Under the pieces are notes generated by a model. The model worked only from the letters and a program-made list of their open reading frames with translations, did no database searches and was not told where the DNA came from. Source: Octopus vulgaris (Eukaryota). Taken from it: a stretch of 64,000 bases of DNA. Shown here piece by piece: positions 9,606 through 46,540 of the stretch (positions within the stretch are counted from its first letter, which is position 1; every line of letters begins with the position of its first letter). The stretch spans positions 60,946,001-61,010,000 of the forward strand of contig OX597817.1 in assembly GCA_951406725.2 (NCBI GenBank), in the 5' to 3' direction. Both the position numbers and the translations under genes were made by a program.

Positions 9606-10091
9606 CACACACACATACATACATATATATAATTATTATTAACCGTTATACAGTATGATGACTGCTAATAAGTCGAACTTCGAAGACACTATCACTATTT
9701 TTCTTGCGCGCGTATGTGTGTGTTGTTATGTATGTGGTCTCTGTATGTATGTATGTATGAAATTCGACAGTAGTTACTAGAAAAACCATAAGTATTTGCA
9801 AACAGGTCTTCCTTTTCATCGTAAACCGGTGATTACCGTGCGTTGACAAGAGGCAAACACCACGAAACTGCAGTCCGTGCGTATCACTTAGGTTTACGAG
9901 AGAGGGATGACCTCCCTTTGCAAATACCATAAGGGCACAGAAAGTGTGCCTAAAGCCAGCTGGAGACGATGATCTCCTGGGGCTAAAAGCTACAGTAACA
10001 CCCACCCTTAGTGGTTAGCCATATTGATGGCTAGTATACTTTACGTTGTCGAGCGGTTATTGTTTACATCTCGTTCAGAGATTTATTATTG

Positions 10092-10149
<58 letters not shown>

Positions 10150-10151
<2 letters not shown>

Positions 10152-10363
10152 CGTTTTGGGATTTGGTTTGCAAGATTCTTTATATGAGTTCGTGTGTTGA
10201 AGCATATTTTGTTGTGTCTGGGTAAAGTCATTTTCTTTAACTATTGAAAAGGTTGCAAGACGCAACGAAAATTTTAGGACAATAAGAAAAAAGTGGAAAT
10301 CTTACCGGTGAGTGTGTTACATAATAAGGCACAAAAGGAAAATGACAGTCCCCAGACACAACA

Positions 10364-10370
<7 letters not shown>
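10150..10370. mobile_element. Short insert in (TA)n with 35-bp inverted repeat and decayed hammerhead-like motif
   Basis: 10204-10238 is the reverse complement of 10334-10369. Between them is TTGAAAA-G-GTTGC-AAGAC-GCAAC-GAAA. Confidence 0.5.
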
Positions 10371-10402
<32 letters not shown>

Positions 10403-10735
10403 TATATATTCAAATAATTCCTTATACTTTCCCATCACCTTTCTTCACTTCTAATTTATCTGTTGGAGGATCAGCGTCCGAAACGTCATGACTCTTTCCT
10501 TTCTTTTTCTTTAAGCGTTAAACTAATATATTTCCGAAAAGTTTTCCATCCCATGTCTCCTTTTATGCTCGTTATGAAGCGTGTGTACGTACGTATGTGT
10601 GAGTGTGTATGTGTATGTGTGTGTCTGTGCGTGGGCGCGTGCGCGCGAGCGTATAAATAAATTGCCTGCCTTAATTTTTAACGCCAGTATAAACTAATAT
10701 TATTCGTTCTGATTTTATTTATCTCTCTTTTTCAG

Positions 10736-10787
10736 CTTTTCCATTTGCAATCAAAGGATTTCCTAGTGTCTTGCCGTCACAGTATGG
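10736..10787 (+). CDS. RBM24: Penultimate 52-nt coding exon of RBM24/RBM38-family RNA-binding protein (xFPFAIKGFPSVLPSQYG)
   Basis: Branch-like CTAAT at ~10694, pyrimidine tract and TTCAG acceptor ending 10735; donor GG|GTAAGT at 10788. Entry is phase 1, exit phase 2. The peptide resembles the short post-RRM exon of vertebrate RBM24 (GFAFGVQQLHPALIQRPFG) and joins in frame to the exon at 49723. Confidence 0.85.
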
Positions 10788-11078
10788 GTAAGTACTTAGC
10801 ACTCACAAAATATAATATGCAGGATAAATATATAAATAAATAAAACATACACGCATCCCACCAAGAGAAACAATATGATTATAAAGAAAAAAAAACTAAA
10901 ATAAAAAATGGAATTTCTAAGCATATAAACGCATTCTGGGATCACTTTTAAATTTTATTTCAACAAACTTTCCATTTTTTCAAAATCAAACTATATTTTG
11001 CGTCCACAACTCCTGGCCCCATTCTATTAAACTTAGCATCATAATCATTGCTTTACTATTACCCTTTTATTGTTGTTG

Positions 11079-11131
<53 letters not shown>

Positions 11132-11133
<2 letters not shown>

Positions 11134-11330
11134 GGCGGTGAGCTGGCAGAATCATTAGCGCGCCGGACTAAATGCCTTGAGCCATTTCGTCCGTCTTTAC
11201 GTTCTGAGTTCAAATTGCCTTTCATACTTTAGGAATCGTTAAAATAAGTACCAGTTGGGCATTGGTGTTGATATAATCGATTAGCCCCTTCCCCTTAAAA
11301 TTTCACGCCTTGTACCTATAATACAAAAAA
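11132..11330 (+). mobile_element. SINE family B with (ATT)n tail
   Basis: Head AAGGCGGTGAGCTGGCAGAATC, B-box-like GAGTTCAAAT, tail ...GCCTTGTACCTATAA...(ATT)n. Related copies at ~13010, 13716, 18730, 23440, 33223, 37452, 61135 and 62810. Confidence 0.85.
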
Positions 11331-11349
11331 ATTATTATTATTGTTGTTA

Positions 11350-11442
<93 letters not shown>

Positions 11443-12714
11443 GACAATAAGAAAAGCACGGTGCTATTTGTAATGAATTGTTTATTTTACGGTTTGAACG
11501 ATATTTCGAGATCGTCTGTGTTCTTCAGGTTCAAAATATAAAAGGAAAACAACTGCAGAAACACAGAAATTCAAAATATAAACGAGGAAATCCTGCGTTC
11601 GTATTTTGCTGGAATGACATCATCAGTTTTCAGTTTTGTTACTGGTAAAAAAGAAAAACTGAAGAGAGAAGAAACATGAAAAAAGGAAAAAAAGAATATT
11701 TAGTCGAAGAGTTTTGTGTAAATGTGATGACATTCACCTGTCATTTTATTCATTCCTCCAGGTGGTGATGTTAAGTAATTCACAAATATATTTCTCCTCA
11801 TGCATTTTGAGGACATAAAGTGTAGTAGATTCAGAATGTTTTCTGAGAATATGCACTTTTTTGGTATTCCTCAAAATTGCAGCCGCTTGATGTAAAATGT
11901 TCGGTAAGCACTGTCGAACTACTGTTATTTTGCTTGTGCCCATTGAATCTTTTGTTTAATTGTTCTGTTGTACAACCAACAGAAATCAAGCTGTGTTTGG
12001 TGCATTCTGTTGTGTACACCAAATGGGAATTCTACACCCCACACCTTTCATGTAAATCAGGACATTTCTGTTGTGATTCCTGATGGAATTAACTTGACTC
12101 ATGTTGTTACACAATGAACAGGGCTTACCTCTCTTGCGGCTGTTTTTCAAGTTACAGTGTTAGAAACTCCAATGGTAGTTTTTTGGTGGAGGTTAGAAGA
12201 AGGGTTTTTTGGTGGGGGTTAGAAGTGGTTAACATTTCTCTTATATTTTCATTGCATCTAAAAGCTACAATAGGCGGCTGAGGGAATGTTTGTTTGAAAC
12301 GAGTATATTTTCCTGCAATATGCTGTAACTTTCAAGCAACACTTATGAAATGTCAACGAAATTTCGGTGCCGGTGAATCACTAAAGGAATTCTATATCAT
12401 ATTTTACTTTGGTTGCTACAATTATGCGTGGAAGTTTCACTTTCCTTGTATATTTTAGCTATGTCTTTTTATCTTTCCTTTTCCTCTAACCAGTTACAAA
12501 ACTGAAAACTGATGATGTCATTCCATCAAAATAGGAACGCAGGATTTCTTCGTTTATAGTTTGAATTTCTGTGTTTCTACGGTTGCTTTCATTTTACATT
12601 TTGAACCTGAAGATAGACGATCTGTCGAAATATCGTTCAAGCCGTTAAATAAACAATCTATTCCAAATCGCATCGTGCTCTTCTTATTGCCTTCCTGAAG
12701 GGTTAATTCAGTCT

Positions 12715-12716
<2 letters not shown>
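11443..12716 (-). mobile_element. 5'-truncated Penelope-like element: GIY-YIG endonuclease remnant between inverted pLTRs, inserted in (ATT)n
   Basis: Minus strand encodes FPQPPIVAFRCNENIRE, CSLC and VVYTTECTKHSLISVGCTTEQLNKRFNGH (GIY-YIG-like). 11443-11650 and 12488-12690 are inverted copies. Confidence 0.85.
12601..12640 (+). ncRNA. Minimal type I hammerhead ribozyme motif (PLE type)
   Basis: TTGAAC-CTGAAGA-TA-GAC-GATCT-GTC-GAAA-TATC-GTTCAA: perfect 6-bp helix I, CUGANGA core, short helix II, GAAA, palindromic minimal helix III with AUC site. Antisense twin at 11494-11534. Confidence 0.75.
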
Positions 12717-12772
<56 letters not shown>

Positions 12773-13174
12773 CATCATCATCATCATCATCATTCTCATC
12801 ATTCTCATCATCATTATACTTATTTTTATTTTCATTACTATTTTCTTCAAATACCGCCGAGGTCAATTATGCCATTCAGGCTTTGAAGATCGATAAAATT
12901 AAGTACAAGTCATATAATGGAGTCGATGTAATCTATGTTCTCCCCACCCCCACTCCAAAAACAAATTTTGCCGGCATTTTTCGGACATTTGAAGCAATTA
13001 TTAGGCAGGAATCTTTCACGATTCGGACAAAATGCTTTGCAGTATCTCTTCCGGTTTTTTACATCTAGAGTACAAGTTCCACCGAAGTCAGTTTTGCATT
13101 TCGTTATTTCGGGGTCGATAGAATATGCTCCAGTTGAGTCCTGCGGTCGATGGAAACGATTTAACCTTTTCCCT

Positions 13175-13580
13175 AAAATCGCTGGGTAACTCTTTTTCGA
13201 AGTTCCTCTGTGAAAGGAAAGTGGTGGCGGAGAGGGAGGTGCTGCCTTCCATTGAATTTGTGAAAAGATGGGTGACTGTGGCAAAACTGGTTTGAGTGAA
13301 TGACCGCACTCTAAACACTCGCTCCTAGATTGGAAAGCAACAGTTGGGAGAGGGTTCATGCCCTTTGTAGTCAGGGTAATCCTGGAACTGTGGGGTTCTT
13401 TGATCGGCCCCAGCTGCAGTTTCTCCTATATCAGGAGGATCGCATCACTCATGTTATTCCATACTTTGATATTAAGTCTACTTCTATCACATTTCATCTT
13501 TTATGTAAATCTTCACACAAATTGTTTTCTGTCCTTGTGGTGTACCCCTTGTTTACGTCCTTGTGGCTAATAAAAGAAAT
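13175..13580 (+). mobile_element. 3' end of an L1/Tx1-like LINE
   Basis: Decayed ORF2 C-terminus (..RKVVAEREVLPSIEFVKRWVTVAK..) followed by a 3' UTR ending CCTTGTGGCTAATAAAAGAAAT. Clade assigned by recalled resemblance. Confidence 0.5.
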
Positions 13581-13629
13581 CATTATCATCGTCGTCATCG
13601 TCATTGTTGTTATTATCATCATGATCACC

Positions 13630-13692
<63 letters not shown>

Positions 13693-13928
13693 GTTGTTGT
13701 TGTTGTTAAAGTTTCGAGCTGAGAAAATCGTTAGGACGCCGGGCAAAATGTTTAGAGGTATTTCGCCCGTCTTCACGTTCCGAGTTCAAATTTTGCCGAG
13801 GTCGACTCAGCCTTCCACCCTTTCGGGTTTGGGAAACTAACAGTGAAACACTGGGGTCGATGTAATCGACTATCCTCTTCCTCGCAAATTATTATTATTA
13901 TTATTATTATCATTATTATTATTATTAT

Positions 13929-13983
<55 letters not shown>

Positions 13984-14773
13984 TGTAGTAGTAGTAGTAG
14001 TTGTTGTTGTTGTTGTTGTAGCAGCAGCAATAGTTTAAGATAGGCGTCTATTGGCACCTTTCGAAAGAGCGCCGGACAATCCGTATTTTCTGATCGTTAA
14101 CCTCGTAGACAGTAATCAACTGTAATCAATTGTGTCCTTCCAAGATATGTTGGCGATGTTTGAAATCACTCTGCGTTGTCATCTAGGACCGGCTTCTGGG
14201 ATGCTTGTCCTTTCGCTTATCCTTTTAGCATCAGAGGGTGGAATTTCAACCGTGTTTCGTAGTTTAGTACCGCAACAGCTCCTTTATAGGATCCAGTTAG
14301 CTCAAGACATCATCAGGAGGAACCACGTCCAGTTTCGGCCCCTACTCCTCTACCGTTTTGACGTGGCGCCCCCTCCCCAATTTCGGAGGTGTCTTCGGAC
14401 CGTCACCTGTCAATCAGCGAAGCTAAACTCCCTCATCATTCAGAGAGATTCGTTCCCGTTTCTTTGATTTATATTTGATCTGAGCTCAATTATAAAGGAA
14501 CATTGAATAGGAACACTCTTCATTGTTTATGCCCCCAACATATCAATCATATATCGGTATCAATAATCGAATCATCATGTTCATTTGTATCGGCGATACC
14601 GAGACACCGAACGTGGATTTTCTTAGTAAGGAGTATAACGGTTTAAGAAGTCTGAGTTTACAGTATTTTGCTAATCAGAATCAAAATTGTGATAAGAGAA
14701 TGAAATCTCTTCAAATTTTCCCTCCTCGTTATCAGTTATTAAAGAACAATAATACTGAACGATAATCACACAG

Positions 14774-14812
<39 letters not shown>

Positions 14813-15159
14813 CTTACATGCAATGAGCGATAATGTATACATATTCATATACATACAGACTTATACTGTAATTACATGTATATAAATGATATAAGAATAT
14901 TTGAGTGTGTGTGTGTGTGTAGTCAGACTTAATATATTTGCAAGACAGTGCGTTCATTCCGCCTCTAATAGAATCAGTCAACCATTGTTTGGGAATGGTA
15001 ATTTGAGGCCAACAGGCTTCCATATATTGTACTTGGCCGATGCAAACTGGTGAAATACTTCACGAATTTCCCATGGTTCAACAACATTATATTATTCGGT
15101 GCGGTAAACAAATCGTAAATAACGAAGATTTCTTTCTAGTGTGCTTATAGATTTAGTGA

Positions 15160-15400
15160 AGGTGTGTAGCCTAGTGGTTAAAATATTACGCTGACGATCG
15201 CAAGACCGTGGTTTCGATACCCGGACTTGGCGGTACATTGTGTTCTTGTGCAAAACATTTCAATTCCTGTTGTTCCAGTCCACTAAGCTGTAAACAAGTC
15301 CCCCTGCGATCGACCGACGTCCAGTTCTGGGGGGGGGGGGTGTTGCGACCTTGGTCACTTGTACGCTATGGAAAACGGGTAGTAGCCCTATGAATCCTGG
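15160..15400 (+). mobile_element. SINE family C
   Basis: tRNA-like head GCCTAGTGGTTA...CGATCGCAAGACCGTGGTTTCGATACCC, shared with 45866-46125(-), 58487(+), 60697(+) and 61400-61665(-). Confidence 0.75.
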
Positions 15401-16172
15401 GGGTCGAGGTATTAGTGTCCAGAAGTTGTTGTTGTTGTTGTTGGGGATGATAATGATGATAACGATGAATGTCTAAATTAGAATACAGTCTTATGATCCG
15501 CTTACACTTAATGAGTTTCATAAGCAAAGTAAGAAGCGATGATAATTCGGTTCGCATAAATACATCACATTTGAATTGAGTTTAAACTCAAGGGCAGTCA
15601 GGCGTAAGTGGAGGGTAGGAGACGCTTTGGCTCTGCTCTTTTGGCGTCACCTATTTGATGCCGATGATACGACTCTGACGTTTTACTATTTCGCCCGTTC
15701 ACTTTATCTTTCTGTCTGTCTATCTCTCTCTGTATTTTTCTATCAGTGTGTGTGTGTTATGACCCTCTCCATTTCTATGTACGAATATCTACGTATGTTT
15801 ATGTAACCTCTCTCACTCTCTTTCACTCATTCTATCTCTCTCTCTCTCGCACCTGTTTGTGTGTGTGTGTGTTTGCTTCTAGCGCCAAAATGTACTCTCG
15901 CCAAAACAAGCTGGATTTACACACACACACATACACACACACACACACACAAACACACACATCAGGTTTCCTAACAGTTCCCGTCTACCAAATTCACTCA
16001 CAAGGCATTAGTCGGCCTGGGACTATAGTAGAAGACAAATGCCAAAGGTATCAGGCAGTGAGATTGATCTCGAAAGCTCGTGGTTGCAAAGCAAACATTT
16101 TACCAACACACCCATATCTGCACCTATTATATGACAATTATACATACATGTATACATACGTACATACGTACT

Positions 16173-16267
<95 letters not shown>

Positions 16268-16581
16268 CTTCTTTTTCTGTGGGAGTCAATTGAATTCCGC
16301 ATTGCACAACAATGAAATCCTCATCTGTCTGTGAGTGATGATGTTGCTGTTGTTGTTGTTTTTGTTGGAGCTTTTTCCTGATTGCGACAGTAAATTATGG
16401 CTTCTTTTTTTAGCCGCGTGAATTTCATCATGTCGAGAGAGAGTAAAGTGTTTTAGATGGACCAAACACGGATACGAACAAGTTACAAATCTGATATCGA
16501 TTGGCTGTGTGCGCTTTGTCTTGGTTATATGTGAACCGTATACATGTAGGTGTATGTACGTGTGTGCGTTTATATATATAT

Positions 16582-16620
<39 letters not shown>

Positions 16621-16904
16621 CACGCACACGCACAAATATATATATATATATATATATATGTATACATGTATATATATGTACATGTACGTATATATTATTT
16701 ATAGTATATGTTTCTTTTTCGCTTATAAGAAGATGGGTATTACAGTGACTTCGAAGTATTGGCACGCTAGCAATTGCCGGAATGTCAACGAAGGCTACCT
16801 GGCCGAAACTTCAAAGTCACTATCACTCATGTACTTTACAAAAAAGGATGGCGTAATCCTATAATTCAATGTGAACATGGTTTCATTATAGCACAGCATA
16901 AAAG

Positions 16905-17115
16905 CACGCTTCCCAACTCTATGGTCCCAGGTTCAGACCCAGCGTGAACTCTTGGTCAAGTGTCTTCTAGTGTAGCTACGAGCCGACCAAAGCTTTGTCG
17001 GTGATTTTTTTTTTATACGGAACCTGAAAGAAGGTAGATTTATGAGAGAGTAGAAGTTTTCAAGGCGCTGCTCCAGCTTGGCTGCAGCCCAATAACTGAA
17101 ACAAGTAAAAGAGAA
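16905..17115 (+). mobile_element. SINE family A, internally deleted
   Basis: Head GGTTCAGACCCAGCG..GGTCAAGTGTCTTCT joined to tail GCTCCAGC..ACTGAAACAAGTAAAAGAG. Confidence 0.75.
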
Positions 17116-17124
17116 AAGATAGTA

Positions 17125-17190
<66 letters not shown>

Positions 17191-17220
17191 CACTCACACA
17201 AATACACATACACACACATA

Positions 17221-17856
17221 TTGAACGAAAGAGTGGTTCGGTTTCTAACCTCTGTAAAGAAGACAATCTTATATGGTATTGTCATTGATATGCTAAAAAA
17301 AACAATATTCATTACGTTTGGTAATAAATCCGAGCTGGAACATGGAGCTGAAGAAAAATACATACGTAAAAGAAAAGAAGAGCCTAGAGAGGAAAAAGAA
17401 GAGGTTGAACATGTTTAAATCATACCATTTTGCTTATGTGAATCTCTCGGCTCCACTTCTTTTCTTTGACGCATCTATTTTTCTTCACTCTGATGAAGCT
17501 CTATGTTCCAGATCGGTTTTATTACCAAATATGATGAATATTATTTGTTTTAGCATATCCATGGTAATACCATATAAGATTGGAAGCAGAAACAGCTGTT
17601 AGATGGGATGCAGTCTATTTGTATTGAATTAAAAAATAATAATTGATGTAAGTCAATTGTTGTTGATCAATAATTCTCCATTTTCTGTTTACTTTAAATT
17701 TGATCTCTGATAAACTCATATTTATCTTTCTCATTACCTGTAACCTATGAGCATAATATGCTTGCATATGTATACTCAGGGTTAAACATAGATAATTATA
17801 CCGGTAATATAATGGATATTTTTATCCCCTAAACGGTTATTCCAACCTCTAACTCT

Positions 17857-17862
<6 letters not shown>
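17221..17862 (+). mobile_element. Non-coding PLE/retrozyme-like insert with ~130-bp inverted repeat and hammerhead-like core
   Basis: 17264-17390 is the reverse complement of 17443-17582. CTGATGA at 17490-17496 and GAAA-CAGCTG-TT at 17589-17600; the insert is bounded by microsatellites. Confidence 0.65.
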
Positions 17863-17907
<45 letters not shown>

Positions 17908-17969
17908 ATATGTATATATATATATATATAATATATATATATATATAAATGTGTATATGTATATATCTA

Positions 17970-18004
<35 letters not shown>

Positions 18005-18053
18005 GTGTATATGTATATATATATATATATATACATATGTATGTATATATACT

Positions 18054-18102
<49 letters not shown>

Positions 18103-18128
18103 GTATCTATATGTATATACACACATAT

Positions 18129-18160
<32 letters not shown>

Positions 18161-18949
18161 GTGTGTGCATGTATGTATGTATATACTGTATATGTACACG
18201 CACACACGCAATAATATTTATTTTTACAACTATGTAAATATCTGTTATATTGCAGTGAAGTACCTCGAATGAAACTGTAGTAAAGAAAGACTCTATAGAA
18301 GCCGTACCCTGTTTTTATCTCCGTTTTATAGTTCCCTTCGCCACTTATTTTATTTCAATTTATATATTTATCCATTTCTATTTGTATTTGAAACATTTAT
18401 TTATGTTTTGACAAGTTTTAGCAAAAGCCACCAATCTCACCGACTGCATGCGACTGGATAATCTTTCAATCTATCTGATATGAATTTATCTTAATTCTGT
18501 GCATAGTCTATGTGTTTGTTTAAGATAGATTTGGTCGAAGAACTGAAAAGAAAACAACGATATTGCCATTATATTGGGCCCTTGTCTTGGTCTCAATTTT
18601 CTTCGATTCTTATCACGTATATGCATGTATATATACGGATGTATGTGTATATTCTCTCTCTTCCCCCCTCTCTCTCTCTCTTATATGTAAGCCAACAAAC
18701 ACGCATATACACACAGTATTTTTTCCGTCTTTAGGTTCTAGGTTCAAATACTGTCGGAGTCGACTTTATCTTTCATCGTTTCAGGGTCGATAAAAAAAGA
18801 ACCGGTTGAGCATTGGTGGCGTCGAGATAAACGACTTGCACTTTCTCCACAATTGCTGACCTTGTACCAAAACTTGAAACCAACATAGCATAGAAACTAA
18901 AAGGGAGAAAGTGAGAGGGAATTCCTGAGCCCTGTGCATTCTCTTCGAT

Positions 18950-19136
18950 GTTAACCATTCTGGGGCGCGGCGTTGAAGGGCTTTGGTCGAACGAATCGAC
19001 CACAGGAGTTTTTTTTTAACACTGGTACTTATCGTTGTCTTTCGCCAAACCGTTTATTTACGGGGAAGCAAACCAACCAACTTGGGTTGTCAAGCGGATG
19101 ACCAACACAAACACTCACACTCACACACATATTGAT

Positions 19137-19183
<47 letters not shown>

Positions 19184-19320
19184 CAGTTTCCATCCACCAA
19201 ATCCACCCACACAACTTTGGTCGGCCCTTGGCTGTAGCCAAAGATGCTTGCAGCGGGACTGAACCCACAATCATGTGGTTGGAAAGCAAACTTCTTACCA
19301 CATAGCCATGCCTGTGCATG
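18950..19320 (-). mobile_element. SINE family A
   Basis: GGGACTGAACCCACAATCATGTGGTTGG..CTTACCACATAGCCA head (reverse), central CA repeat and conserved body. Confidence 0.8.
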
Positions 19321-19459
19321 AGCATATCTTTATGCTCTCTAGCATATCTAAGATGTAAAACTGAATATATTTGCATCCTTCAGTGTTGGATTCACGACAG
19401 TTCATATATAGAAAAAGAGACAACGTTGGATGTATCACAGAACATAGTGGTAGAGTGCG

Positions 19460-22122: not shown

Positions 22123-22336
22123 AGCACCCCCAAAAATGTTAACTTCACTTAAAAATTCATTATTTTGTGTCAAAATTTGCGTCGCACCCACTGTGACCTG
22201 CTCCCTAAAAAGAGTTCACTCGTCCAACTTGAGTTCTACTACAAGTGTGTTAGTGACGAGGTCACAGTGTTTGCCACACATATTTTGACCCCAAATAATT
22301 TATGTTTAAGTGAAGTTAACAGTTTTTGAATGGCTG
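22123..22336. mobile_element. MITE with ~85-bp terminal inverted repeats
   Basis: AAAAATGTTAACTTCACTTAAA...CACTGTGACCT pairs with AGGTCACAGTG...TTTAAGTGAAGTTAACAGTTTTT. Confidence 0.8.
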
Positions 22337-26163: not shown

Positions 26164-26280
26164 TTACTCCCTCTTTTATAAATCTATACAAACATCTACT
26201 TACACATACTAGGATACTCATACATACACATGCAAAGACACGTGCATACAAACATATATAACTGAAATTAATACAGACTA

Positions 26281-26382
26281 ACTGTACAAAACAATCAGAT
26301 GTATTAGTATAACGTTCAGGAATTGAAAAAGTCTTTTACGTTTCGAGCCTACGTTCTTCTACAGAAAAGGACACAGGAGAGA

Positions 26383-26390
<8 letters not shown>
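26281..26390 (-). mobile_element. Short hammerhead-like repeat (CUGUNGA-variant family)
   Basis: Minus strand CTTTT-CTGTAGA-AGAAC-GTAG-GCTC-GAAA-CGTA-AAAG, then ACTAATACATCTG, shared with 46430-46540. Confidence 0.6.
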
Positions 26391-26767: not shown

Positions 26768-27182
26768 ATGCGTGGAGTGGCTGTGTGGTAAGTAGCTTGC
26801 TAACCAACCACATGGTTCCGGGTTCAGTCCCACTGCGTGGCATCTTGGGCAAGTGTCTTCTGCTATAGCCCCGGGCCGACCAATGCCTTGTGAGTGGATT
26901 TCGTAGACGGAAACTGAAAGAAGCCTGTCGTATATATGTATATATATATATATAAGTGTGTGTGTATATGTTTGTGTGTCTGTGTTTGTCCCCCTAGCAT
27001 TGCTTGACAACCGATGCTGGTGTGTTTACGTCCCCGTCACTTAGCGGTTCGGCAAAAGAGATCGATAGAATAAGTACTGGGCTTACAAAGAATAAGTTCC
27101 GGGGCGATTTGCTCGACTAAAAGGCGGTGCTCCAGCATGGCCGCAGTCAAATGACTGAAACAAGTAAAAGTGTAAAAGAGTA
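26768..27182 (+). mobile_element. SINE family A, full length and little diverged
   Basis: A-box-like TGGCTGTGTGG, B-box-like GGTTCAGTCCC, central TA/TG microsatellite, tail ACAAGTAAAAGTGTAAAAGAGTA. Confidence 0.92.
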
Positions 27183-29365: not shown

Positions 29366-29637
29366 TTATTGTCTCTGCAAGCTTCTTTAGCTGGAGATGT
29401 ACTACGGTGTTAGTTGTTCCCTACCAATGACCTAAGGTAACACCTCTTATTTTTCGAGCACCTTCCTGAGTATTCGAGCGGTTCCAAGCAGTGCTGTTTT
29501 CTGCAAGTGGTCCACCCTTATTGCAGCCCCTATTTGTTCCACGTACTTCTCAAGATTTTTACTCACTGTTCCCAGGTCTCCAACAATTATTGGTGCTACT
29601 ACCACCCTTTTCATCGACCACAACTGCTTAACCTCTT
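29366..29637 (-). mobile_element. 3' terminal fragment of R4/Dong-clade non-LTR retrotransposon
   Basis: Minus strand EVKQLWSMKKVVVAPIIVGDLGTVSKNLEKYVEQIG..LQKTALLGTARILRKVL, then a short UTR ending at AAT/GAT repeats. Confidence 0.85.
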
Positions 29638-29838
29638 GCTCCTCCTCCTCATCATCATCGTTGCTATTGTTATTAATTTGTGATGCTGATTTCTTCTTTT
29701 CTATTCCTTCGCTAAATAGAAAAACGTTTCTTTATTTTATAGAAATCCACCAAATCATAAACACCGTCCATTGCATGTAAATATCTGACTATATTGTCAT
29801 CATCATTATTGTCGTCATCATCATCATCATCATCATCA

Positions 29839-33222: not shown

Positions 33223-33416
33223 TCCTTTCTACTATAGGCGCAAGGCCTGAAATTTTACGGGAGGGGTCTAGTCGATCACATCGACCCCAGTGTGGCACTG
33301 CTACTTAATTTAGTGACCCCGAAAGGATGAAAGGCAAAGTTGACCAGAGCGGAATTTGAACTTGGAACGTAGTGACGGACGAAATACTCCTAAGCATTCT
33401 GCCAGCTAGTCGCCTC
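33223..33416 (-). mobile_element. SINE family B
   Basis: Reverse complement of the 11132-11330 type, including tail GGCCTTGCGCCTATAGTAGAAAG. Confidence 0.85.
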
Positions 33417-36356: not shown

Positions 36357-38227
36357 ATAAGATCCAAGGATCAAGGTGTAAGAAGAAAGCTTCTAGTAAA
36401 CAATAGTAAATATAAAAAAAACAACTTTCAGGGACAAGAGTGGTTTATTGAGATGGAAGGTTGTGGATTTTTTTTTTTTTTTATTAAAGTACGATAAATT
36501 GAAATGTTCTTTTTTATATTTTACGGTAGGCAACCAGGGTTACCGGGTATGTGAATATGAATACAAGAGTTAAAGAATGGAGTAAATAAGATCCGGGTAA
36601 AATATGTTTCATAGCGAACGGAACCTCGGAAGTGGTAAATATCCAAGCGAGGTGTATATGGCAGGCTACTCGTCAGGTCAAGGGTATCTTGGTTGAATGA
36701 AAGTTTACTTTGTCGCAAAGAGGTATATGCTAACACAGGGAAAATTCTATCTGATTGAATCTTCCGTGTGTTAACATGTACCTCCTTCACACCGTGGGTT
36801 AATCCTCAAGCTAAAGATATCTTCATTAAATGAAAGTTTACATAACCGAAAAATTAAAAATCAATCATAGGATTTGAAATTAGCATATCTTTTTTTCTTG
36901 GAAAATATAACCATTACACTGTAGCATATCGCTTATTTAATTTTAGAATTCGTCGCGGGGAAAAAATTACCAACTTTATATTGAGTTAGGACTCTTCTCG
37001 GAAGGGTTTGAGAACTCAGCATGTTGCGAATGGGAACAAGTTAAACCACAACGATTTCCTGGGAATTCCCGCCCACAGCCACGTTATGTTCATGGAAATC
37101 ATTGTAAGGTAGAGAAAACATACCGGACATTTTCTAAAAAAATAAATGTGTGAGGTGGGGAGTATGTGGCTTTCATATATATCCTGTCTGGTTTTATTAG
37201 TGATGTAAGGGATAAGAATTAATCAGATTCAACCGGAAATCAGAACTGCCCTCCCGGACGTTTGTCATTTGGCATCTATGGCGTCGGTAAATTAAAGTTG
37301 AACAGCTTCATAGTTACAGTTTTGTTCTTAGTTTCCTTTACGTCACTTCCGCTTTTCAAGTTTTGTTTGATGTATTTCGTCATTTACGATACTATTTGTG
37401 ATATTTCTGGAGATGGCATAAGACTAACTGTTTGGGAAAGAGCCGATTAGAAGCCGTGAGCTGGCCGGATCGTTAGCACGTCGGACAAAAATGTTTAGAG
37501 GTATTTCTTCCAGCATCACGCTCTGTGTTCAAATCCAGCCCATTTTCGGGGTTGATAACATGACATATCAATCAATGCAATAGATCACTTTTTCTGCTAA
37601 GCATAGCAGCTAAATAAGCTAAATATCTTTTAAATAGAATTCTAGTGCCTTTAAAAATGAAGGAGCATTCATTATATAACGTAGTTCTAAATATACTGTT
37701 TATAGTCGTGGTTGGAACACTTCCAGACATTTGTCTGTTTGAACAGGATCCACCAGCGGTTAAATGACACCAAATTCTATGTATTATAGCGTCTTCGTAA
37801 GAATGAAGTTTATTTTCTTCAGGGCTCTCACGACCCCACCAGTAATCGTCTTTATTCAGATTTGTACAAGAACCTCTCCCCGCTCTCTCTCTCTCTCTCT
37901 CTCCCTCTCTCTCTTTCTCTGCTCACGCACACATACACACTCACACATGCACGCACGCACACACACACATGCATGCATGGATGCATTGTTTACATCACAA
38001 AAAACTATAAACTTCGACTGAAGTGAAATAACACGTTTTTAAACTTTTTAATTTGAACTAGATAAAGATACGTTAATAGAGTCTAAATACTGGGCGAGCA
38101 GCCTTCGAATTTTTCTATCCAAAGGGTCTTCATAACCCCATAATGAAACGTTATTTATAGTTTTATCTACTTCGAGTTTCATCGATAAAAAGAAAAAACG
38201 AATTATATATGTGTAGGCGTGTGTGTT

Positions 38228-38278
<51 letters not shown>

Positions 38279-38381
38279 GTATATATATATATAATAGAAA
38301 TATGTTATATATATTCATGTAAGTGTATGTATGAATATACGTAGGTTTACATTAACGTAAATGTGTGCATCAATCTATGTA

Positions 38382-38416
<35 letters not shown>

Positions 38417-38692
38417 GTCTCTCTCTTTCTCTTTCTTTCACTAGTTGTTTTCATATGAATCTATTCCTCTCTCACTCTATTTCCCTCTTTAATTCTAGTA
38501 ACCAAAGTACTACTACTATTACTACTACTACTACTACTACTGCTGCTGCTGCTGTCACAGGTAGCAGTAGTGTCCCTCATAACTTTGCTTCAGTAATGAA
38601 AATAAGTGTACTGCGATAAATTCTTAATGGTAACCACAGCAACACCATAATATATGCTGTTTGATCAACCTCTCTCTTTCCTACACTCGCTT

Positions 38693-38740
<48 letters not shown>

Positions 38741-41700
38741 GAAGTAGTAGTAATGGTAGTGGTGGTGTTAAAATGTGTGTAAAGTAGCAGATTAATTAAT
38801 CCTTAAAACATAATTAATGACATTCGATAATCATTGTTATTATTGATTATAATCATCGCCGCCGTCACCACCACCATAATCATCACCACCACCACCACCA
38901 TCGTCATCATTCTTATGGTTCAAGGTTTATTGTACAAGGTCGTATTCGTTTGCAGATGTTATTAGCTATAACGGCATGGTGACTAGGAACACGGTGGAAT
39001 CAGTTATGAGCCAAAGAGGCCTACGGAACCAGCTTGCCACCGCCAACAGGTCCAGTTAGAATTAGAGTCTTTCGTCATAAGCCATGGGCACTCTTTACTG
39101 ATGATAACCACTGTGTTGAAACGAAGGGTTACCATTAATATATTCCAATTCAGAAACTTTTAGCTGCTTATTTCTGTCTATCGCGTTTCCATCGAAACAA
39201 TCCAGCGACCCCTTAGACTCGTAGTCTTCGTACACCCCGCTTCCTCACATATAATTTTGGGATGCTGTGTATTTTTCGGGGATTTGTAAGATATGTAATT
39301 CTATCCAAGATTCCTATCAAAACTTTTCACTCCCAAGAGAAAGAATTTTCATAAATCAGAAAGGTGCGGATGGCAAATATAGAAGAAGCTGCGCTTATTC
39401 GTCTCCTTATCTCTCTCCCTGTTTCTCTCTCTTTCTCTCCCCCTCTCTCTTGCTCTTTTTCTTAGCCATTCGTGCACACACACACGCACACACGCATATG
39501 TATGCATGCATGTGTGTGTGTGTGTATTTTTGTGTCTATGAGTGTTTTCTCGCTCAGGTTGAAATTATCAATCAATGGTGAGGCATTATATGAGTGTGTG
39601 TATAAGTACGTATATGTGTGTGTGTTTACAAAGATATAGTGGGAGATAGAGAAAGAGAGAGAGGGAGGCGTGTGAGGAACATGTGCCTTGACGATTTCAA
39701 TTTCTATACATTTATAATTTTAGCTTTTTTTCTTAATTTTCATGCATTATGTATTAATTGTAGATTTACTGTTTCGTAGAAATGTGTCCACCAATGTCTG
39801 TCTAGGTTTGTGCATGTATTTACTTTGGCTTGTGCACGGCTTGGGTCCCATAATAATGAATTTACTTAAAATACGAGCAACAAACTAACCCCAATATAAT
39901 GACAATGGATTGGAATTAAACGAAAACCTGTTTCGTGTTCTTGGCTTAGCTCGGTTAATTAATAGGGTGCTATTGATTTATTGCTTAACTGATTAAAGCA
40001 TCGATGACGTAGCTAGAGACTGCAAGGCACTCTATCTTGTTGTTGTTGTCGCGGTCGTTGTCGTCGTTAATAAGATCGCAACATCTCTTCCCGCACGAAT
40101 CGTAAGTTTAGCAATGTTCTCCTTCGAAACATTTTTTTCCTGCTACCTAAAAGGTAGCTCTTTAACCTATAAACGGTCTAGATCCGGCCTATCACACCTG
40201 CTCGGCAATGTCATTTTAAATATAAAGAAACACTTCATTGAAATCTCGAAGCTACGCGGTAATGCTTGATCAATGCAAAATGATGTAAAGAAATAAACAT
40301 TTGACAGAGGGCGCTCTGAACGCTGAAAGCTTCATTTATCTACGCCGATGGCATCGCTAAAGTATAAGGAATATCCCTAGAATATCTGGCATATCTGCAA
40401 TTCTACAAAAAGGCCGAGGGGACATCATTAGGAAGAGGTAGACTATTTAGTTTCCAGGGCGTATATGTGACCCACATCACATTCCCCCGCCCCGCCTGAA
40501 TGGGACCCCGATTTGAAACCGTTAATTCTGTTGTTGGTTTTGTTTCTAGCAAAGTTACAAATTTGGAGGAAGGAGCTGAATGAATTACATCGTCCTCAGT
40601 ATTTCACAGGGAGTTTATTGTATCGACCCCTAAAATAGACACTGCTCATTTGGCTTAACCGAGATTTGAAACCAGAATGTAAAGATTTAGCAGAAATACC
40701 GCAAAGCATTTATGTCTGATGTAAATTCATCTTGTGCTAGGACGAATGTTGATGGCGCGGGTGTAGACCCAGTATGAACAACAACATTTCTCGAGATATG
40801 GACTGCATGAGTTATTGACTCATCACCCGGCGACTCATGAGTGGTTATACCACATTTCAGTGTTCGTCATTAGTATTTATTTCATCGTGAGCAAAGAGAT
40901 GAAAGGTAAATTCAGTCTCCAAAAGATAGACTCAGAATATGAAACAAAGACCTCGTTAAATGTCTTTGTTAATCTGTCGCGTTTCTGATCTATCTTCCTT
41001 GGTGCCACTGGCTCTGAGAAAGGCTTAACGAAGTAGATCTATTCCAAAATCGTTTTAGTGTTTTAACAGAGGCAAACAATGCCGGGATTTAGTCAGCAAT
41101 TATCATTAGCGTACTTGCTAATATGTTAATGATATAATAATTGTCGTTGCTAACAATGATAATAATCATAGATAAGCTGGTGGTTGTGGTGGAGATGGAC
41201 GTTGATTCGTTCAATGGCAATTATGAATGAATGGAAGATAATAGAGAAAGGACAAAAAGAAGAGTGAGAGCAAAAAAGCTAACAGTGGACATGTCACGAT
41301 CATCAAAATCGAAAATAGACGGAGGTTGAAATTGCTTGCTATTAAAATCATTGCAGTTGATGATGAAGATGACAACGGCGATGATGATGGCATTGGCGCC
41401 AGCGATAATTGCACTGAGTTACCTGCAATTAACACTCTCCTTTGCCAATGACACCTTTTCCTGTACAGGTGCATCTTTTCTGACGACATCCAATGAAATC
41501 CCATTGTAAGACGACTGCGCAACTCACGTTCGCTCACATCTCATCAACTACACATGCATGTCTGCCATCATATAAGCAGCTATAATTACACATATGTGTA
41601 TATGCATATGTGTGTGTGTGTGTGTGTGTGTGTATACTCATATATATGTATGCAGCCACACATGCAATCAATCAATTATTATCACTCGTTCGATCGAGTT

Positions 41701-41856
41701 TCGAAAACGTCAGATGAGTTCGGTAAAGCGAGGCGCACTTCAGCTTGTAACGAGTTATTAACATAAACAACTGTCTATTATATATTTACTCCATATTTTA
41801 TAGAATTCTGATCCGTTCATTGGATTGTGTCACTTGTGTGTGTGTGTATGTATATA

Positions 41857-41892
<36 letters not shown>

Positions 41893-41918
41893 TGTATGTA
41901 TGTATGTATGTATGTATG

Positions 41919-41960
<42 letters not shown>

Positions 41961-42168
41961 AATATATAAATATTGTGTGTATATTATATATGTGTTTGTC
42001 GATAGACAGGACAGACAGGATAGACAGGACAGACATAGATAACGTGTGTAGGCGAGTATTGCCCACTCCATTTAGTCCGTTCGTGTACATCCTTCGCCTC
42101 AGTGACTTTCACTATACTTTATGCAAAAATGAAATTTGAATCCTTGAACTTTAAACGTACCGAAACTA

Positions 42169-42510
42169 TAACAGAAAGGTACAGGTGTCAGTCCATTACG
42201 GCCGTTTCCAACGACTCTTTTAATCGATTAATCCGTTTTCATCAGTTGAGTGCAAAATAACGTCATTCGATATTCAAAATAAAGGACATTCAGAATGATT
42301 TAGCATATTAATAGTTTAAAATAACAGAAGCAATATAAATGTTTTTGCTGCGTAGATTTTAAACTATGTCAAACCATTCTGAATGTCTTTTATTTTGAAG
42401 TTCATGAATTCATCTGACGAAAACGCTTTCTTCACAAAAATGTAATATTTTCATTTATCAATTAAAGAAGTCGTGGGAAACGGCCGTAATGGAGTGATAC
42501 CTTTCTGTTA
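42169..42510. mobile_element. Near-fully palindromic MITE flanked by TA
   Basis: TA-ACAGAAAGGT..TCCATTACGGCCGTTTCC pairs with GGAAACGGCCGTAATGGA..ACCTTTCTGT-TA. Inner arms TTCAAAATAAAGGACATTCAGAATG / CATTCTGAATGTCTTTTATTTTGAA. Confidence 0.9.
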
Positions 42511-42941
42511 CTCATATTTTATTCACCTAGCCCAGAATCTGGCCTTCGTAAATATTATGGACAGTATATTTAATATAATATAAAGTACATGTCTGAATAT
42601 CTAAGAGGGGATTTCTTCCCTCAGCTGGGTCTAACTGTTTACATACACTGCAATAATATCATTCGGCTGCTACTTATGTAACAAGTTTGATATTTACATA
42701 ATATTGTTGTGTGTGTATATTATACCAAACTAGCAAGGTGCCTCAAGTTAAGTACCTAATTCATCTGAATCTTAATTATGTGTGTGTACACTCACATATG
42801 CATATTTATGTGAATACGAGTGCGTGTGTTCACATGGGAATTTTAATGTAAAGGCACAGCATGTGTACTCTTGTTTGCTTAGTCTTCTAAATCGATATAT
42901 TCGTTTTTGCAAACAAACATAACTGACGTGTTGGCATATTC

Positions 42942-42983
<42 letters not shown>

Positions 42984-43133
42984 AAAGTACATTTTGCACA
43001 TAGACAAGCAGATGTGATGTGAGAAGACGGGTGTGTCAGTATATGTACATGCATGTGGTTTTTGAATGGCATATTTGGAAGTCCACACATTCAATTTAAA
43101 CCTCATCAAATAGGGAATCACCACCACCACAAA

Positions 43134-43227
<94 letters not shown>

Positions 43228-43628
43228 TAAAAATAATATTGATGATGATATTAATTAACGTGTAGTGCTTTTGTAATTTATTCCACCCACTTACTTTTAC
43301 AAAGTTTGTCTGTGATAGAAAATAAAGATATTCTATTTAATCGTTGGCTAAATCCCTAAGTTGAAAATAATCTTGATAATCTTCAAAATCCATTAATCTT
43401 TTAATTTCGTAGACTTCAAGGCAGGAATGAAATCTAGAAGTTGATGTTACACACATATATGTACACTTGCACATACGCACACACAAACCGGCATACGTGC
43501 ATGCACAGACACGCACACAGACAGACACACACACACACATACATGCACACGCGCACAGATACATATAAATGCACGTATATTTATATGCACTTACAGTGTA
43601 CTAGTGTGTATATGTATGTATCTGTCTG

Positions 43629-43697
<69 letters not shown>

Positions 43698-44010
43698 ACA
43701 TCCTCTAAACGTTTTTATTTGCACTTTTTAGAGTACCTGTCTATACAAGCACACCTGACGCACGCGCAGACACAGACTCGCGTACGCGCGCACACACACA
43801 CACACACACATCTATATGTATTTTCTGTCTCCCCACTCTCATTCTCTCAAAAGGGCCTCATAAAATAAGTACCACACCTAAAAAATATAATAGGCCCTAG
43901 ATCTGATTCGTTCGACTAAAACACTTCAAGGCCGTGCTCCAGCATGAACGCAGTCTGAGTAGAACAAGTGAAAGTTATATATATATATATAATAGTAATA
44001 ATAATAATAT

Positions 44011-45843
44011 TAGGGAGTAAATCCAAACTTACAGGGAAAAATTAGATTTAGGATTAAATCTAATTTTACAGTATAAATATATAAAATAAATTAGAGATAA
44101 AACCACTATTAGGCAAATCAAACAGTGAAAAACATAAACCAAAACATAGAAATAAAATTAATTAATATAATATACAAAATATATAAAAATTTAAATTATT
44201 TAAATTTAAAGTTAAAATTTTAAAAAAATTTTCGATCATTAAATTATACTTATAAATTTATATACATATATATATATTTATTATTTTTACTTTTATTATT
44301 ATTTTTATTTTTATTTATTTATTTTTTTAATTTAATTTAATTAATTTATTTTTTAAAAATATATAACTATCAAAAAGTATTAAAAAGCTTAATATAAGAT
44401 AAAAAGTAAAACCACTACGATCGTTTCATGCCCATAACCTAATTCGAATAACAATAATTTAAATTCAATTAATAATTCGAATTATGGTTATCGTCAATCT
44501 TCAGGTTAATGATAATATTTAAATAAATAATCAAATATATTTAAACAATATTTAAAAAAAATATAAATAAAATAATAATTCTTCTTATAAAAAACTCTAT
44601 TATCAAACTAGAAACTTTAAACATTATGATTATGTCATACAATCGATTATAATGTTAAATATTAATTTTTAAGTATTATTTTTACGGTAAGAAACCCACA
44701 AATAATCTAATCTCAGTTATAGTTAATATCTAATTACATAAATATTTAACAAAAAAAAATCACTATTCATATTATTAAATTTAATTCCAAGTCAAATAAT
44801 TATATAATATTTGAATAATAATTAATAATAATAAATATAAGAATTAAGATCTAAAATTATCTCTATCAATAAATATATATGCACGTATAATAAAGACCTA
44901 ATAAATTAATTATTCATTATTACTTATAAATATATTAAAAGATTAAAGATGAAAAAGTTAATTGTAAACAAACAAACTATCTTAAAAGAACGCTATAACT
45001 AATTAACGATCCATATATCTCGTTGGTTAATTAATAACTTACAAAAACCGTATAGTTAAGACCTAAAATGAAATAATAAAATACTTAATGAAATAATCAA
45101 TCCGTAGTTATAAAGTATCCAATAAATACTACGAATATATTTATCAATGGAAAAAATACTACTACCAATTATCAATTGAAAAAAGCAATTTATAAGTTAT
45201 AATAACAATTATGAAATATTTAAAATAACTATCAACAAATATAGTTATTTAAGACTAAAATTTATGCTATCAATACATGTATATACATGAAACCTAACTT
45301 TAAAAAACTTGTATAACTGTTAACGATCTATATATCTATTTGGCTAAGTAAAGTCTTACGAATAAACGTAGAGTTAAAATCTAATAATTATATAGAAAAA
45401 ACTACGATAACTAAATCATTACATAACAATCAGTATTTGTATAAAATACAAAATTATTCAATAAGACTTATTAAAATATTTAAATTTTAAAATTTAAAAT
45501 CTTAAATATAAATATATACTTAGCTTTGCAAGGTTTTTAATACTTTTTGATAGTTATATATATATATTTTTTAAAATTAATAATTAAAAAAAAAAAAAAA
45601 AAAAAAAATAATAATAATAAAAATAAAAATAATAATTAAAAAAATATATATATATATAAATTTATGAGTATAATTTAATAATTAAAATTTTTTTTTAAAT
45701 TCTAACTTTAAATTTAAATAATTTAAATTTTGAATTTTATATTTTATATATTTTGTATATTATATTAATTAATTTTATTTCTATGTTTTGGTTTATGTTT
45801 TTCACTGTTTGATTTGCCTAATAGTGGTTTTATCTCTAGTTTA
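44011..45843 (-). mobile_element. Extremely AT-rich non-coding element with ~300-bp inverted repeats, internal direct repeats and a hammerhead motif, inserted in (TA)n
   Basis: 44088-44390 is the reverse complement of 45530-45843. Diverged direct repeats at ~44846-45066 and ~45251-45384; no ORF. Confidence 0.8.
44411..44511 (-). ncRNA. Hammerhead ribozyme motif with long helix II
   Basis: Minus strand: CTGAAGA, long hairpin (ATAACC-ATAATTCGAAT ... ATTCGAATTA-GGTTAT), GAAA-CGATC-GTA with palindromic helix III; helix I imperfect. Confidence 0.6.
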
Positions 45844-45865
45844 ATATATATATATATATATATAT

Positions 45866-46125
45866 CGCCGTGACCGACCAGGCTGTCAGATGTTGCTACA
45901 CATCGCTGGTCACAATGCACTTTGCATTGTTTTAGCCTTCAAATGACGCCACCCCGCAGGCTAAGTGAGCAGGCCAACAGAAGAAAGAGTGAGAGAAAGT
46001 TGCGGCCTCGTGGAGCTTTATGTGTTTTCGCTCAATAAACACTCACAGCGCCCGGTCTGGAAAGCGAAACCGCGATCCTACGACCACGAGTCCGCTGCCC
46101 TAACCACTAGGCCATTGCGCCTCCA
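45866..46125 (-). mobile_element. SINE family C
   Basis: Reverse head TGGCCTAGTGGTTAGGGCAGCGGACTCGTGGTCGTAGGATCGCGGTTTCG, tRNA-like. Confidence 0.8.
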
Positions 46126-46429
46126 CACACACATATATATAAAGGAATTAAAAAAATGGGATAAAAGCGAAAAACATCCAGACAGATGATACAAAAAACG
46201 GGACAAAAAAAAACAAGGATGGGTCATTCGGAGTTTTCGTTCCTCAGTCGAGTTCCAGATTATCTTTGCAATTCGGCTGGTTATACTCGAGATTGCTCCA
46301 TCTGGCCAACTCCAAGGAGAACTAGGCTAAGAGCACTAGATTGCTTGGAAAAAAGCAGCGAATGTATACGAAAACAAGGACGAAAAACAAACGGAGAAAT
46401 GGTACATACACACACACACACACATATCA

Positions 46430-46540
46430 TGTTCCTCTCTGTTGAAGAGCGTAGGCTCGAAACATAAAAGGCTTTCTTACCTTCCCGAGCGTCAAACTAA
46501 TACATCTGTCTTCCTCTTTTGTTTTTCTGTAAATATCAAC
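46430..46540 (+). mobile_element. Short hammerhead-like repeat (CUGUNGA-variant family)
   Basis: CCTCT-CTGTTGA-A-GAGC-GTAG-GCTC-GAAA-CATA-AAAGG...ACTAATACATCTG; homologous to 26281-26390 and more weakly to 10455-10530. Confidence 0.6.

What the first reader, a model, noticed from the sequence alone, without database searches (positions are those of the whole stretch)
9650..46540. Introns of one RNA-binding-protein gene host many distinct hammerhead-bearing PLE/retrozyme-like inserts
Seen: CUGANGA/GAAA-type motifs with short palindromic helix III in several sequence-unrelated families. They are at 11494/12601, 17490, 44411, 10460/26333/46439, 9652/16783, 10241 and 39098, mostly sitting inside TA or ATT microsatellites, and four to five carry an inverted partial copy. 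Known: Penelope-like elements carry minimal type I hammerheads in their pLTRs and often have 5' inversions. Inference: this may be a diversified radiation of non-autonomous ribozyme retroelements that targets microsatellites and seeds introns with dsRNA hairpins.
Basis: partly seen in the sequence, partly recalled or inferred. Interest (0 to 1): 0.75.

Follow-up and report, generated by a model that had tools for sequence, protein, structure and literature searches.

The report
Penelope transposon stubs with hammerhead ribozymes
The motifs are the cut-off, often back-to-back ends of several families of Penelope-type jumping genes lying in introns of a likely octopus RNA-binding-protein gene, a known and common arrangement, most copies damaged; two families carry a predicted self-cutting RNA with an unusually long arm that has not been tested.

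Summary
Observation mostly right; interpretation only partly. The host is an RBM24/38 homolog. Ten of 11 listed sites belong to seven dispersed repeat families whose copies carry a type I hammerhead layout; 39098 is single-copy and probably chance. Only 10244 passes a strict descriptor; 17490 and 44504 pass a long-stem-II one; the rest are damaged. Families A, F and I run upstream into GIY-YIG (A, F also RT) coding DNA, with tails, inversions and target-site duplications: they are truncated ends of autonomous Penelope-like elements, not tandem retrozymes. Density is unremarkable; microsatellite bias is family-specific. Two extras: (1) families B and C have Hydra-type hammerheads with a 68-87-nt stem II, against at most about 24 nt in published Hydra elements; (2) most F arms (54 of 58 unselected) stop at or within 13 nt above the core, likely the RNA's 5' end, suggesting priming at the 5' pLTR. 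AT-rich family C may be truly non-autonomous. The scan already noted long-armed octopus hammerheads on other DNA.

The parts
10736..10787 (+). Internal 52-nt exon of the RBM24/38-like host gene
   Evidence: tblastn 18/18 aa to P0001; AG and GT at the edges
49723..50023 (+). Last coding exon of the host gene; the intron 10788-49722 holds most inserts
   Evidence: 98% to P0001, named RNA-binding protein 24-A of Octopus bimaculoides by its source
9640..9712 (+). Heavily decayed family E end; only helix III and the 3' strand of stem I are recognisable
   Evidence: 30-nt matches to 4 family E loci
10150..10366 (+). Family F insert between TA arrays: inverted arm with tail (about 10150-10238), then sense arm with the only intact minimal hammerhead of the window (U3-A8 core 10244-10250, GAAA 10267, predicted cut after 10274)
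   Evidence: long F copies reach EN and RT
10428..10566 (+). Family D end; core at 10460 carries two changes; family majority is a complete minimal type I motif
11443..12716 (-). Family A: 5'-truncated PLE with decayed GIY-YIG coding DNA (11783-12319), 3' hammerhead at 11528(-), inverted arm with hammerhead at 12607(+) and tail; ATT arrays on both sides; both hammerheads damaged
16720..16850 (.). Family E fold-back centred on the 5' strand of stem I; both arms decayed
17264..17862 (+). Family B fold-back (arms 17264-17582) with long-stem-II hammerhead: core 17490, GAAA 17589, 6-nt palindromic helix III loop; TA array at the 3' end
26262..26389 (-). Family I end, core at 26364(-)
39098..39130 (+). 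Isolated CUGAUGA...GAAA motif, no cleavage triplet in register, single copy: probably chance
42169..42510 (.).
   Evidence: family not searched genome-wide
44010..45858 (-). Family C: AT-rich insert between TA arrays, long-stem-II hammerhead (core 44504, GAAA 44427), tail at 44010-44086, inverted arm about 45530-45858
46426..46540 (+). Family I end, core at 46439 with U at position 6 as in the family; helix III palindrome damaged

Best explanation
The inserts are 5'-truncated, often head-to-head inverted 3' ends of several Penelope-like retrotransposon families, shown by coding DNA upstream for three families and likely for the other four, and they are likely passive leftovers whose hammerheads do not cut the host RNA. 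Mechanism: the element's GIY-YIG endonuclease nicks AT-rich DNA and its reverse transcriptase primes inside the RNA at one of two sites 110-180 nt past the hammerhead (established in vitro, PMC11167929), which gives the tail/no-tail ends seen here. Copying from both target strands, or fold-back of the first cDNA, gives the inverted arm (inferred). Long copies come from priming in the 3' pLTR; the many very short copies of F likely come from priming at the same site in the 5' pLTR and running off the RNA's 5' end 13 nt above the core (inferred). In the RBM24 pre-mRNA the inverted arms are predicted to form long hairpins, which lock the B motif; most other motifs have decayed.
For: A: 21 of 28 non-window loci hit RT/GIY-YIG proteins (two overlap), Pfam GIY-YIG at cutoff in L015, relatives carry RVT_1 plus GIY-YIG. 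F: 608 exact matches to an upstream-extended pattern, control 0; 5 of those 30 loci reach EN, L249 also RT. I: L218 runs from EN through a 3' UTR into the motif. Two 3' ends about 60 nt apart in F; none of 63 tail ends continues into shared DNA. Target-site duplications of 10 nt or more in 15 of 18 F loci against 10 of 306 mismatched pairs. Stems differ wholly between families yet pair, and the core covaries C3-G8 to U3-A8 in F. Strict motif kept by 1 of 35 A arms, 1 of 16 D, 26 of 74 F. F arms not selected for length: 54 of 58 end 13 nt or less above the core; 10 of the 13 ending exactly there have G where long copies have C; in L249 the inverted arm stops there and shares diagnostic bases with the long arm. 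Window fold-back B: -153 kcal/mol, z -18.6, core paired. Published: opposite-strand min-HHR pairs 100-700 bp apart, mostly truncated PLEs (PMC4209133); inversions, tails, (TA)n bias (PMC8557442).
Against: No PLE coding DNA was found for B, C, D or E (the profiles were built from relatives of family A and may miss Hydra proteins). None of the 30 pattern-selected long F loci showed the window's C variant, which 24 of 30 arm-query hits carry, so that variant may have its own short master. 13 of 16 C copies stop at one 5' site and share a frame-broken AT-rich body. No full-length element with a 5' pLTR was recovered, so the 5'-priming step is not shown. The F motif at 10244 is intact and lies in the loop, not the stem, of its hairpin.
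Confidence: 0.78

Rival explanations
1. Some families (C above all, the C variant of F, perhaps B and E) are true non-autonomous PLE derivatives: short or frame-broken units with their own internal promoter that are transcribed and re-copied in trans by PLE protein.
For: C is young at its 3' end (96-99% in 40 of 40 scored hits), at least 2.1 kb, about 12-25% GC, longest open frame 103 aa or less, shared between copies at 84-92%; 13 of 16 copies share a 5' stop and L215 shares the window's whole inverted layout. 37 of 39 C-variant F arms are short. pLTRs act in trans (PMC3846280, passages); Penelope has an internal promoter (PMC2377424, passages); a short pLTR-ORF-start RNA is a template in vitro (PMC11167929).
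Against: The same stop occurs in the A variant of F (17 of 19 unselected arms) and inside an RT-EN-bearing locus, so a fixed end does not need a separate master. C queries select copies that cover the query. No tree of copies was built.
Confidence: 0.35
2. The inserts are retrozymes: hammerhead-processed, circular, tandemly copied RNAs.
For: Type I motifs with palindromic helix III; retrozymes are proposed to derive from pLTRs (bioRxiv 10.64898/2026.07.22.740005, parts 1-3 of 5).
Against: No tandem unit of this kind in the window; motifs are single or on opposite strands; copy ends lie at the tail sites and above stem I, not at the predicted cut.
Confidence: 0.05
3. The inserts were kept because their hairpins or ribozymes regulate RBM24 pre-mRNA (dsRNA for editing, or cleavage).
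For: At least seven stable fold-backs in two introns; motifs at 10244 and 17490 are on the transcribed strand and near-intact. Heavy A-to-I editing in octopus is recalled, not tested.
Against: No enrichment over unselected flanks; arms are only 66-88% alike for A, B, G, H and most cores are broken; minimal motifs need a partner and cut poorly (PMC4209133).
Confidence: 0.06

Closest known systems
Minimal type I hammerheads (min-HHR) in pLTRs of metazoan Penelope-like elements (Cervera and De la Pena 2014, PMC4209133; parts 1-2 of 4 read)
   Same: Short stem I, unpaired base before stem II, palindromic helix III, U3-A8 core variant, single motifs from truncated copies, opposite-strand pairs 100-700 bp apart
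   Different: B, C and G have far longer stem II; I has U at core position 6 in 18 of 19 arms and E mostly C at position 4, not seen in the parts read
Hydra clade of EN+ PLEs, including Hydra-1_Obim (Craig et al. 2021, PMC8557442; passages, section 11, File S1 rows, File S2 table, parts of Fig. S7)
   Same: B, C, E and G share the File S2 layout: one extra base on each side of stem II and a 4-bp helix III; (TA)n flanks; C is 2.1 kb like Hydra elements
   Different: Stem II with loop is 87 nt (B) and 68 nt (C) against about 24 nt or less in the Hydra rows (53 nt in one plant PLE-X row); the Hydra-1_oBim motif is a different sequence; no Hydra protein was linked to B or C
Poseidon element PAc (Frangieh et al. 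2024, PMC11167929; parts 1-2 of 4 read)
   Same: Two internal priming sites give the tail; ATT/AT-rich targets; both strands extended; hammerhead not needed for insertion
   Different: The parts read do not describe run-off copies from the 5' pLTR
Adineta vaga Penelope families (PMC3846280; passages)
   Same: Inverted pLTRs, tails, 8-10-bp target duplications, palindromes at the inversion junction, solo pLTRs
   Different: Low copy number; solo pLTRs there are ascribed to recombination or deletion
Metazoan non-LTR retrozymes (bioRxiv 10.64898/2026.07.22.740005, parts 1-3 of 5; PMC7229834, search listing only)
   Same: Type I hammerhead, pLTR kinship
   Different: Defined by tandem units with at least two motifs on one strand; not met here

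Membership tests
EN+ Penelope-like elements (families A, F, I) | RT and C-terminal GIY-YIG coding DNA upstream of the terminal repeat | tested here: met
   A: EN and RT; F: EN and RT; I: EN in 1 of 19 non-window loci
EN+ Penelope-like elements (families B, C, D, E) | RT and GIY-YIG coding DNA upstream | tested here: inconclusive
   No hit linked to these elements; flanks mostly 1.5 kb, profiles biased to relatives of A
EN+ Penelope-like elements | Optional 3' tail and inverted 5'-truncated arm | tested here: met
   F, C, A, B
EN+ Penelope-like elements | Target-site duplication | tested here: met
   F: 15 of 18 loci with 10 nt or more, control 10 of 306; not measured for other families
EN+ Penelope-like elements | Clade placement by RT phylogeny | not tested
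   Neptune-like for A and I, Nematis-like for F rest on recalled linker motifs only
PLE minimal type I hammerhead | Core, stems I and II, palindromic helix III, NUH site in the family majority | tested here: met
   D and F pass strictly; A is split 14/14 at position 3; I passes only with U6; E by eye only, 0 of 23 arms pass
PLE minimal type I hammerhead | Self-cleavage, as dimer or protein-assisted | not testable with these tools
   Needs a bench assay
Hydra clade (B, C, E, G) | Hammerhead with extra base each side of stem II and 4-bp helix III; (TA)n insertion | tested here: met
   (C ends next to microsatellite 18 of 30, B 4 of 12)
Hydra clade (B, C, E, G) | Hydra-type RT and EN (RWK, DKT, CxCX5C, no CCHH) | tested here: inconclusive
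   Only a by-eye likeness of one C frame to the DKT region of Fig. S7; tblastx against a local Hydra-like fragment found nothing
Non-LTR retrozymes | Tandem units with two or more same-strand hammerheads | tested here: not met
Non-LTR retrozymes | Circular RNA | not testable with these tools
   Only contigs of runs guessed to be RNA were available

The most novel reading that the evidence does not exclude
This genome holds a large, descriptor-invisible class of Hydra-type hammerheads with 26-87-nt stem II arms, carried in part by a young, AT-drifted, non-coding 1.6-2.1-kb element (family C) that is copied in trans; and the abundant 130-190-nt solo and fold-back inserts are run-off products of priming in the 5' pLTR, so their shared 5' end plus added G maps the capped start of PLE RNA and shows that both target strands are primed.
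Probability: 0.35. Interest if true: 0.55.

Novelty: new variant of a known kind. Interest (0 to 1): 0.32.

Why it matters
As a locus it is ordinary: PLE stubs of this kind fill the genome. Two by-products have some value. Long-stem-II motifs were missed by Rfam here (listed rows) and would fall outside the 7-17-nt spacer used in PMC8557442, so PLE hammerhead counts in cephalopods may be too low. The fixed 5' end of short copies is a genomic read-out that could test the open question of how PLEs make solo and inverted pLTR inserts.

Tried and rejected
Rfam scan: microsatellite-driven miRNA hits only among the 150 listed of 318. The repeat finder was swamped by microsatellites; replaced by masked self-BLAST. 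Protein searches with L015 and L057 fragments against longer proteins found nothing; the Atlas gave only unnamed eukaryotic clusters. A pattern search meant to count F variants had a wrong gap length and returned 4 useless hits, so the genome-wide share of short copies per variant is unknown. Script stopped half-way; finished. RNA: no RNA holder listed; contigs of guessed-RNA runs laid on A and B gave short pieces, largely from other copies, and say nothing on expression, editing or cleavage. Expected count for the window's own nine families (1.8 per 64 kb) was rejected as a density test because the families were chosen from the window; replaced by family-blind descriptors. Lunse et al. 2017 on PLE hammerhead variants was not held, so U6 and C4 cores may already be described there. 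Idea that C is an assembly artefact rejected: its body recurs at 84-96% elsewhere. Re-wired (non-circular) topology for B and C not needed: both parse as type I. Three sequence look-ups and one more in earlier findings were blank. bioRxiv supplements and most of the PMC8557442 supplement (parts other than 2 and the search hits) were not seen; Repbase/Dfam could not be searched, so whether these families are catalogued is unknown.
Full report
Setting. The window is G000:C4:60946001-61010000 in a 2.8-Gb, 227-contig assembly, rich in microsatellites (149 tandem rows). An open frame at 49724-50020 is 98% identical to P0001, which its source names RNA-binding protein 24-A of Octopus bimaculoides; a second exon lies at 10736-10787. 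So the animal is likely an octopus, the host gene is an RBM24/38 homolog on the + strand, sites 9652-10460 lie in the intron before the small exon and the others in the 38.9-kb intron after it.

Observation check. All listed motifs are at the given places. Alone they are weak: a strict minimal type I descriptor finds one site, 10244 (shuffle mean 0.025; 1 of 40 shuffles reach 1), and allowing two core errors gives 4 against 2.05 (4 of 40). A descriptor for long stem II and 6-8-nt helix III finds 17490 and 44504; 0 of 30 shuffles reach 2. No hammerhead family is among the 150 Rfam rows listed of 318. The support comes from the families: searches of G000 gave 690 (A), 759 (B), 42 (D), 26 (E), 2388 (F), 2102 (I) and 1694 (C) first-look candidates, 40 or fewer scored each. 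Site 39098 matched only itself and nothing in the other loci.

The motifs in the families. Alignments of 19-29 copies show unrelated stem sequences that all pair. D and F majorities pass the strict descriptor; F uses the U3-A8 core described in PMC4209133; A is split 14 C and 14 U at position 3; I has U at position 6 in 18 of 19 arms, though these were found with a U6 query; E mostly has C at position 4 (27 of 38, column partly out of register). Intact arms are few: A 1 of 35, D 1 of 16, E 0 of 23, I 1 of 20, F 26 of 74; B 9 of 22 and C 9 of 13 under a looser, long-loop descriptor. B and C have one unpaired base on each side of stem II and a 4-bp palindromic helix III, the layout of Hydra-clade motifs in File S2 of PMC8557442, but stem II with its loop is 87 and 68 nt and folds as one hairpin, against about 24 nt or less in the Hydra rows; one plant PLE-X row has 53 nt. 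The Hydra comparison was prompted by earlier notes of this scan and checked here only at the level of the RNA motif.

What the inserts are. In A the window itself holds decayed GIY-YIG coding DNA at 11783-12319 on the - strand ahead of the 11528 motif; 21 of 28 other A loci hit RT or EN proteins; relatives of the L015 fragment carry RVT_1 plus GIY-YIG. For F, a pattern reaching 26 nt above the core has 608 exact matches (reversed control 0); 5 of the 30 fetched reach EN, and L249 holds RT, EN, 3' UTR, motif and an inverted arm. For I, L218 runs from EN into the motif. F has two 3' ends about 60 nt apart, none of 63 tail ends continues into shared DNA, and 15 of 18 loci have a duplication of 10 nt or more against 10 of 306 mismatched pairs. 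These are the published marks of PLE insertion: inverted truncated arm and optional tail (PMC8557442, passages), internal priming at two sites (PMC11167929), opposite-strand motif pairs from truncated copies (PMC4209133), palindromic junctions and solo pLTRs (PMC3846280, passages). For B, C, D and E no coding DNA was linked; B copies share up to about 600 nt upstream, C at least 2.1 kb.

Fixed 5' ends. With a query starting inside the F core, none of 30 hits extends more than 27 nt above it. Over all F arms not selected for length, 54 of 58 end 13 nt or less above the core; 13 end exactly there, and 10 of these have G at the next place where long copies have C. In L249 the inverted arm stops at the same place and shares diagnostic bases with the long arm. 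I read this as run-off to the capped 5' end of the template after priming in the 5' pLTR (inference; the extra G as a copied cap is recalled from LINE-1 work). A splice-donor-like motif at 10307 fits the promoter-plus-intron layout of Penelope (PMC2377424, passages). Against: the window's C variant was in 24 of 30 arm-query hits and in none of the 30 long loci (several not callable), which also fits a separate short master, and my attempt to count variants failed. E copies are fold-backs centred on stem I, but the query was such a fold-back. In C, 13 of 16 copies, the window's included, start within 514-556 of a 2250-nt reference; the body is AT-rich and frame-broken in every frame, and 40 of 40 scored 3' ends are 96% or more identical. 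C is the best case for a non-autonomous family, unproven.

Microsatellites and density. 3' ends next to a microsatellite: I 10 of 15, C 11 of 17 and 7 of 13, A 5 of 14, B 4 of 12, F 6 of 50 and 10 of 57; random places 349 of 5000. In 417 kb of outer flanks the short-stem descriptor gives 3 hits (0.46 per 64 kb; window 1); after dropping C-selected loci and two duplicates, the long-stem descriptor gives 6 distinct hits in 356 kb (12 shuffles: 0-2), about 1.1 per 64 kb against 2 in the window. The gene is not a hot spot by this test, and long-armed motifs of several other sequences occur throughout the genome.

Effect on the host. On the + strand B folds into a hairpin of -153 kcal/mol (z -18.6) that pairs its core; F folds with the motif in the loop (z -4.6); A, C, E, G and H also fold back. 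These are predictions. Sequencing data gave no answer. Minimal motifs showed no monomer activity and low dimer activity (PMC4209133), and PAc's motif needed protein and was dispensable for insertion (PMC11167929), so cleavage of the host RNA is unlikely.

Novelty. An octopus PLE hammerhead is already in print (Hydra-1_oBim). Seven searches of the paper library listed no paper whose title or abstract start points to long-stem-II PLE motifs or 5'-pLTR run-off; I read only the papers named, and Lunse et al. 2017 was not held. The finding as framed is a known kind; the long arm is a variant of it, already noted by this scan on other DNA. Interest 0.32.

Noticed in passing
window 46140-46400 (-), core at 46247: Repeat (J) directly beside site 46439 with a CUGANGA core whose 5' helix partner lies upstream, a 6-bp helix that changes on both sides between two sequence variants (5 copies seen), and a second helix whose 5' strand lies before the putative cut site; GAA is followed by U. 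Resembles the core-opened, re-wired layout in earlier scan notes.
   Followed up: partly
   Followed up: partly
window 22132-22326: 195-nt fold-back (75% arms) with no clear hammerhead and no match in the fetched loci.
   Followed up: no
window 11134-11327, 12846-13164, 13716-13872, 33226-33403, 37453-37534, 61199-61362 and 6870-7233, 15975-16114, 16908-17112, 26770-27162: Two other dispersed repeat families with many copies in the window, SINE-like in size (name not tested).
   Followed up: no
window 29447-29731 (-) and 63134-63574 (+): Open frames that look like C-terminal ends of non-LTR retrotransposon proteins (resemblance recalled).
   Followed up: no
L032, L055, L070, L176, L180, L245 outer flanks: Further sequence-distinct long-stem-II motifs with 6-7-nt palindromic helix III loops, some as inverted or repeated pairs.
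   Followed up: partly
L057:22-1000 (+) and L249:8941-9100 (-): Decayed RT/EN fragments with Hydra-like motifs, not linked to families B or C.
   Followed up: partly
L218:3950-4200 (-): TATA-like box about 30 nt above the place where several family I copies begin.
   Followed up: no
window 44974-45081 and 45291-45400: Internal 110-nt direct repeat (75%) in family C.
   Followed up: no
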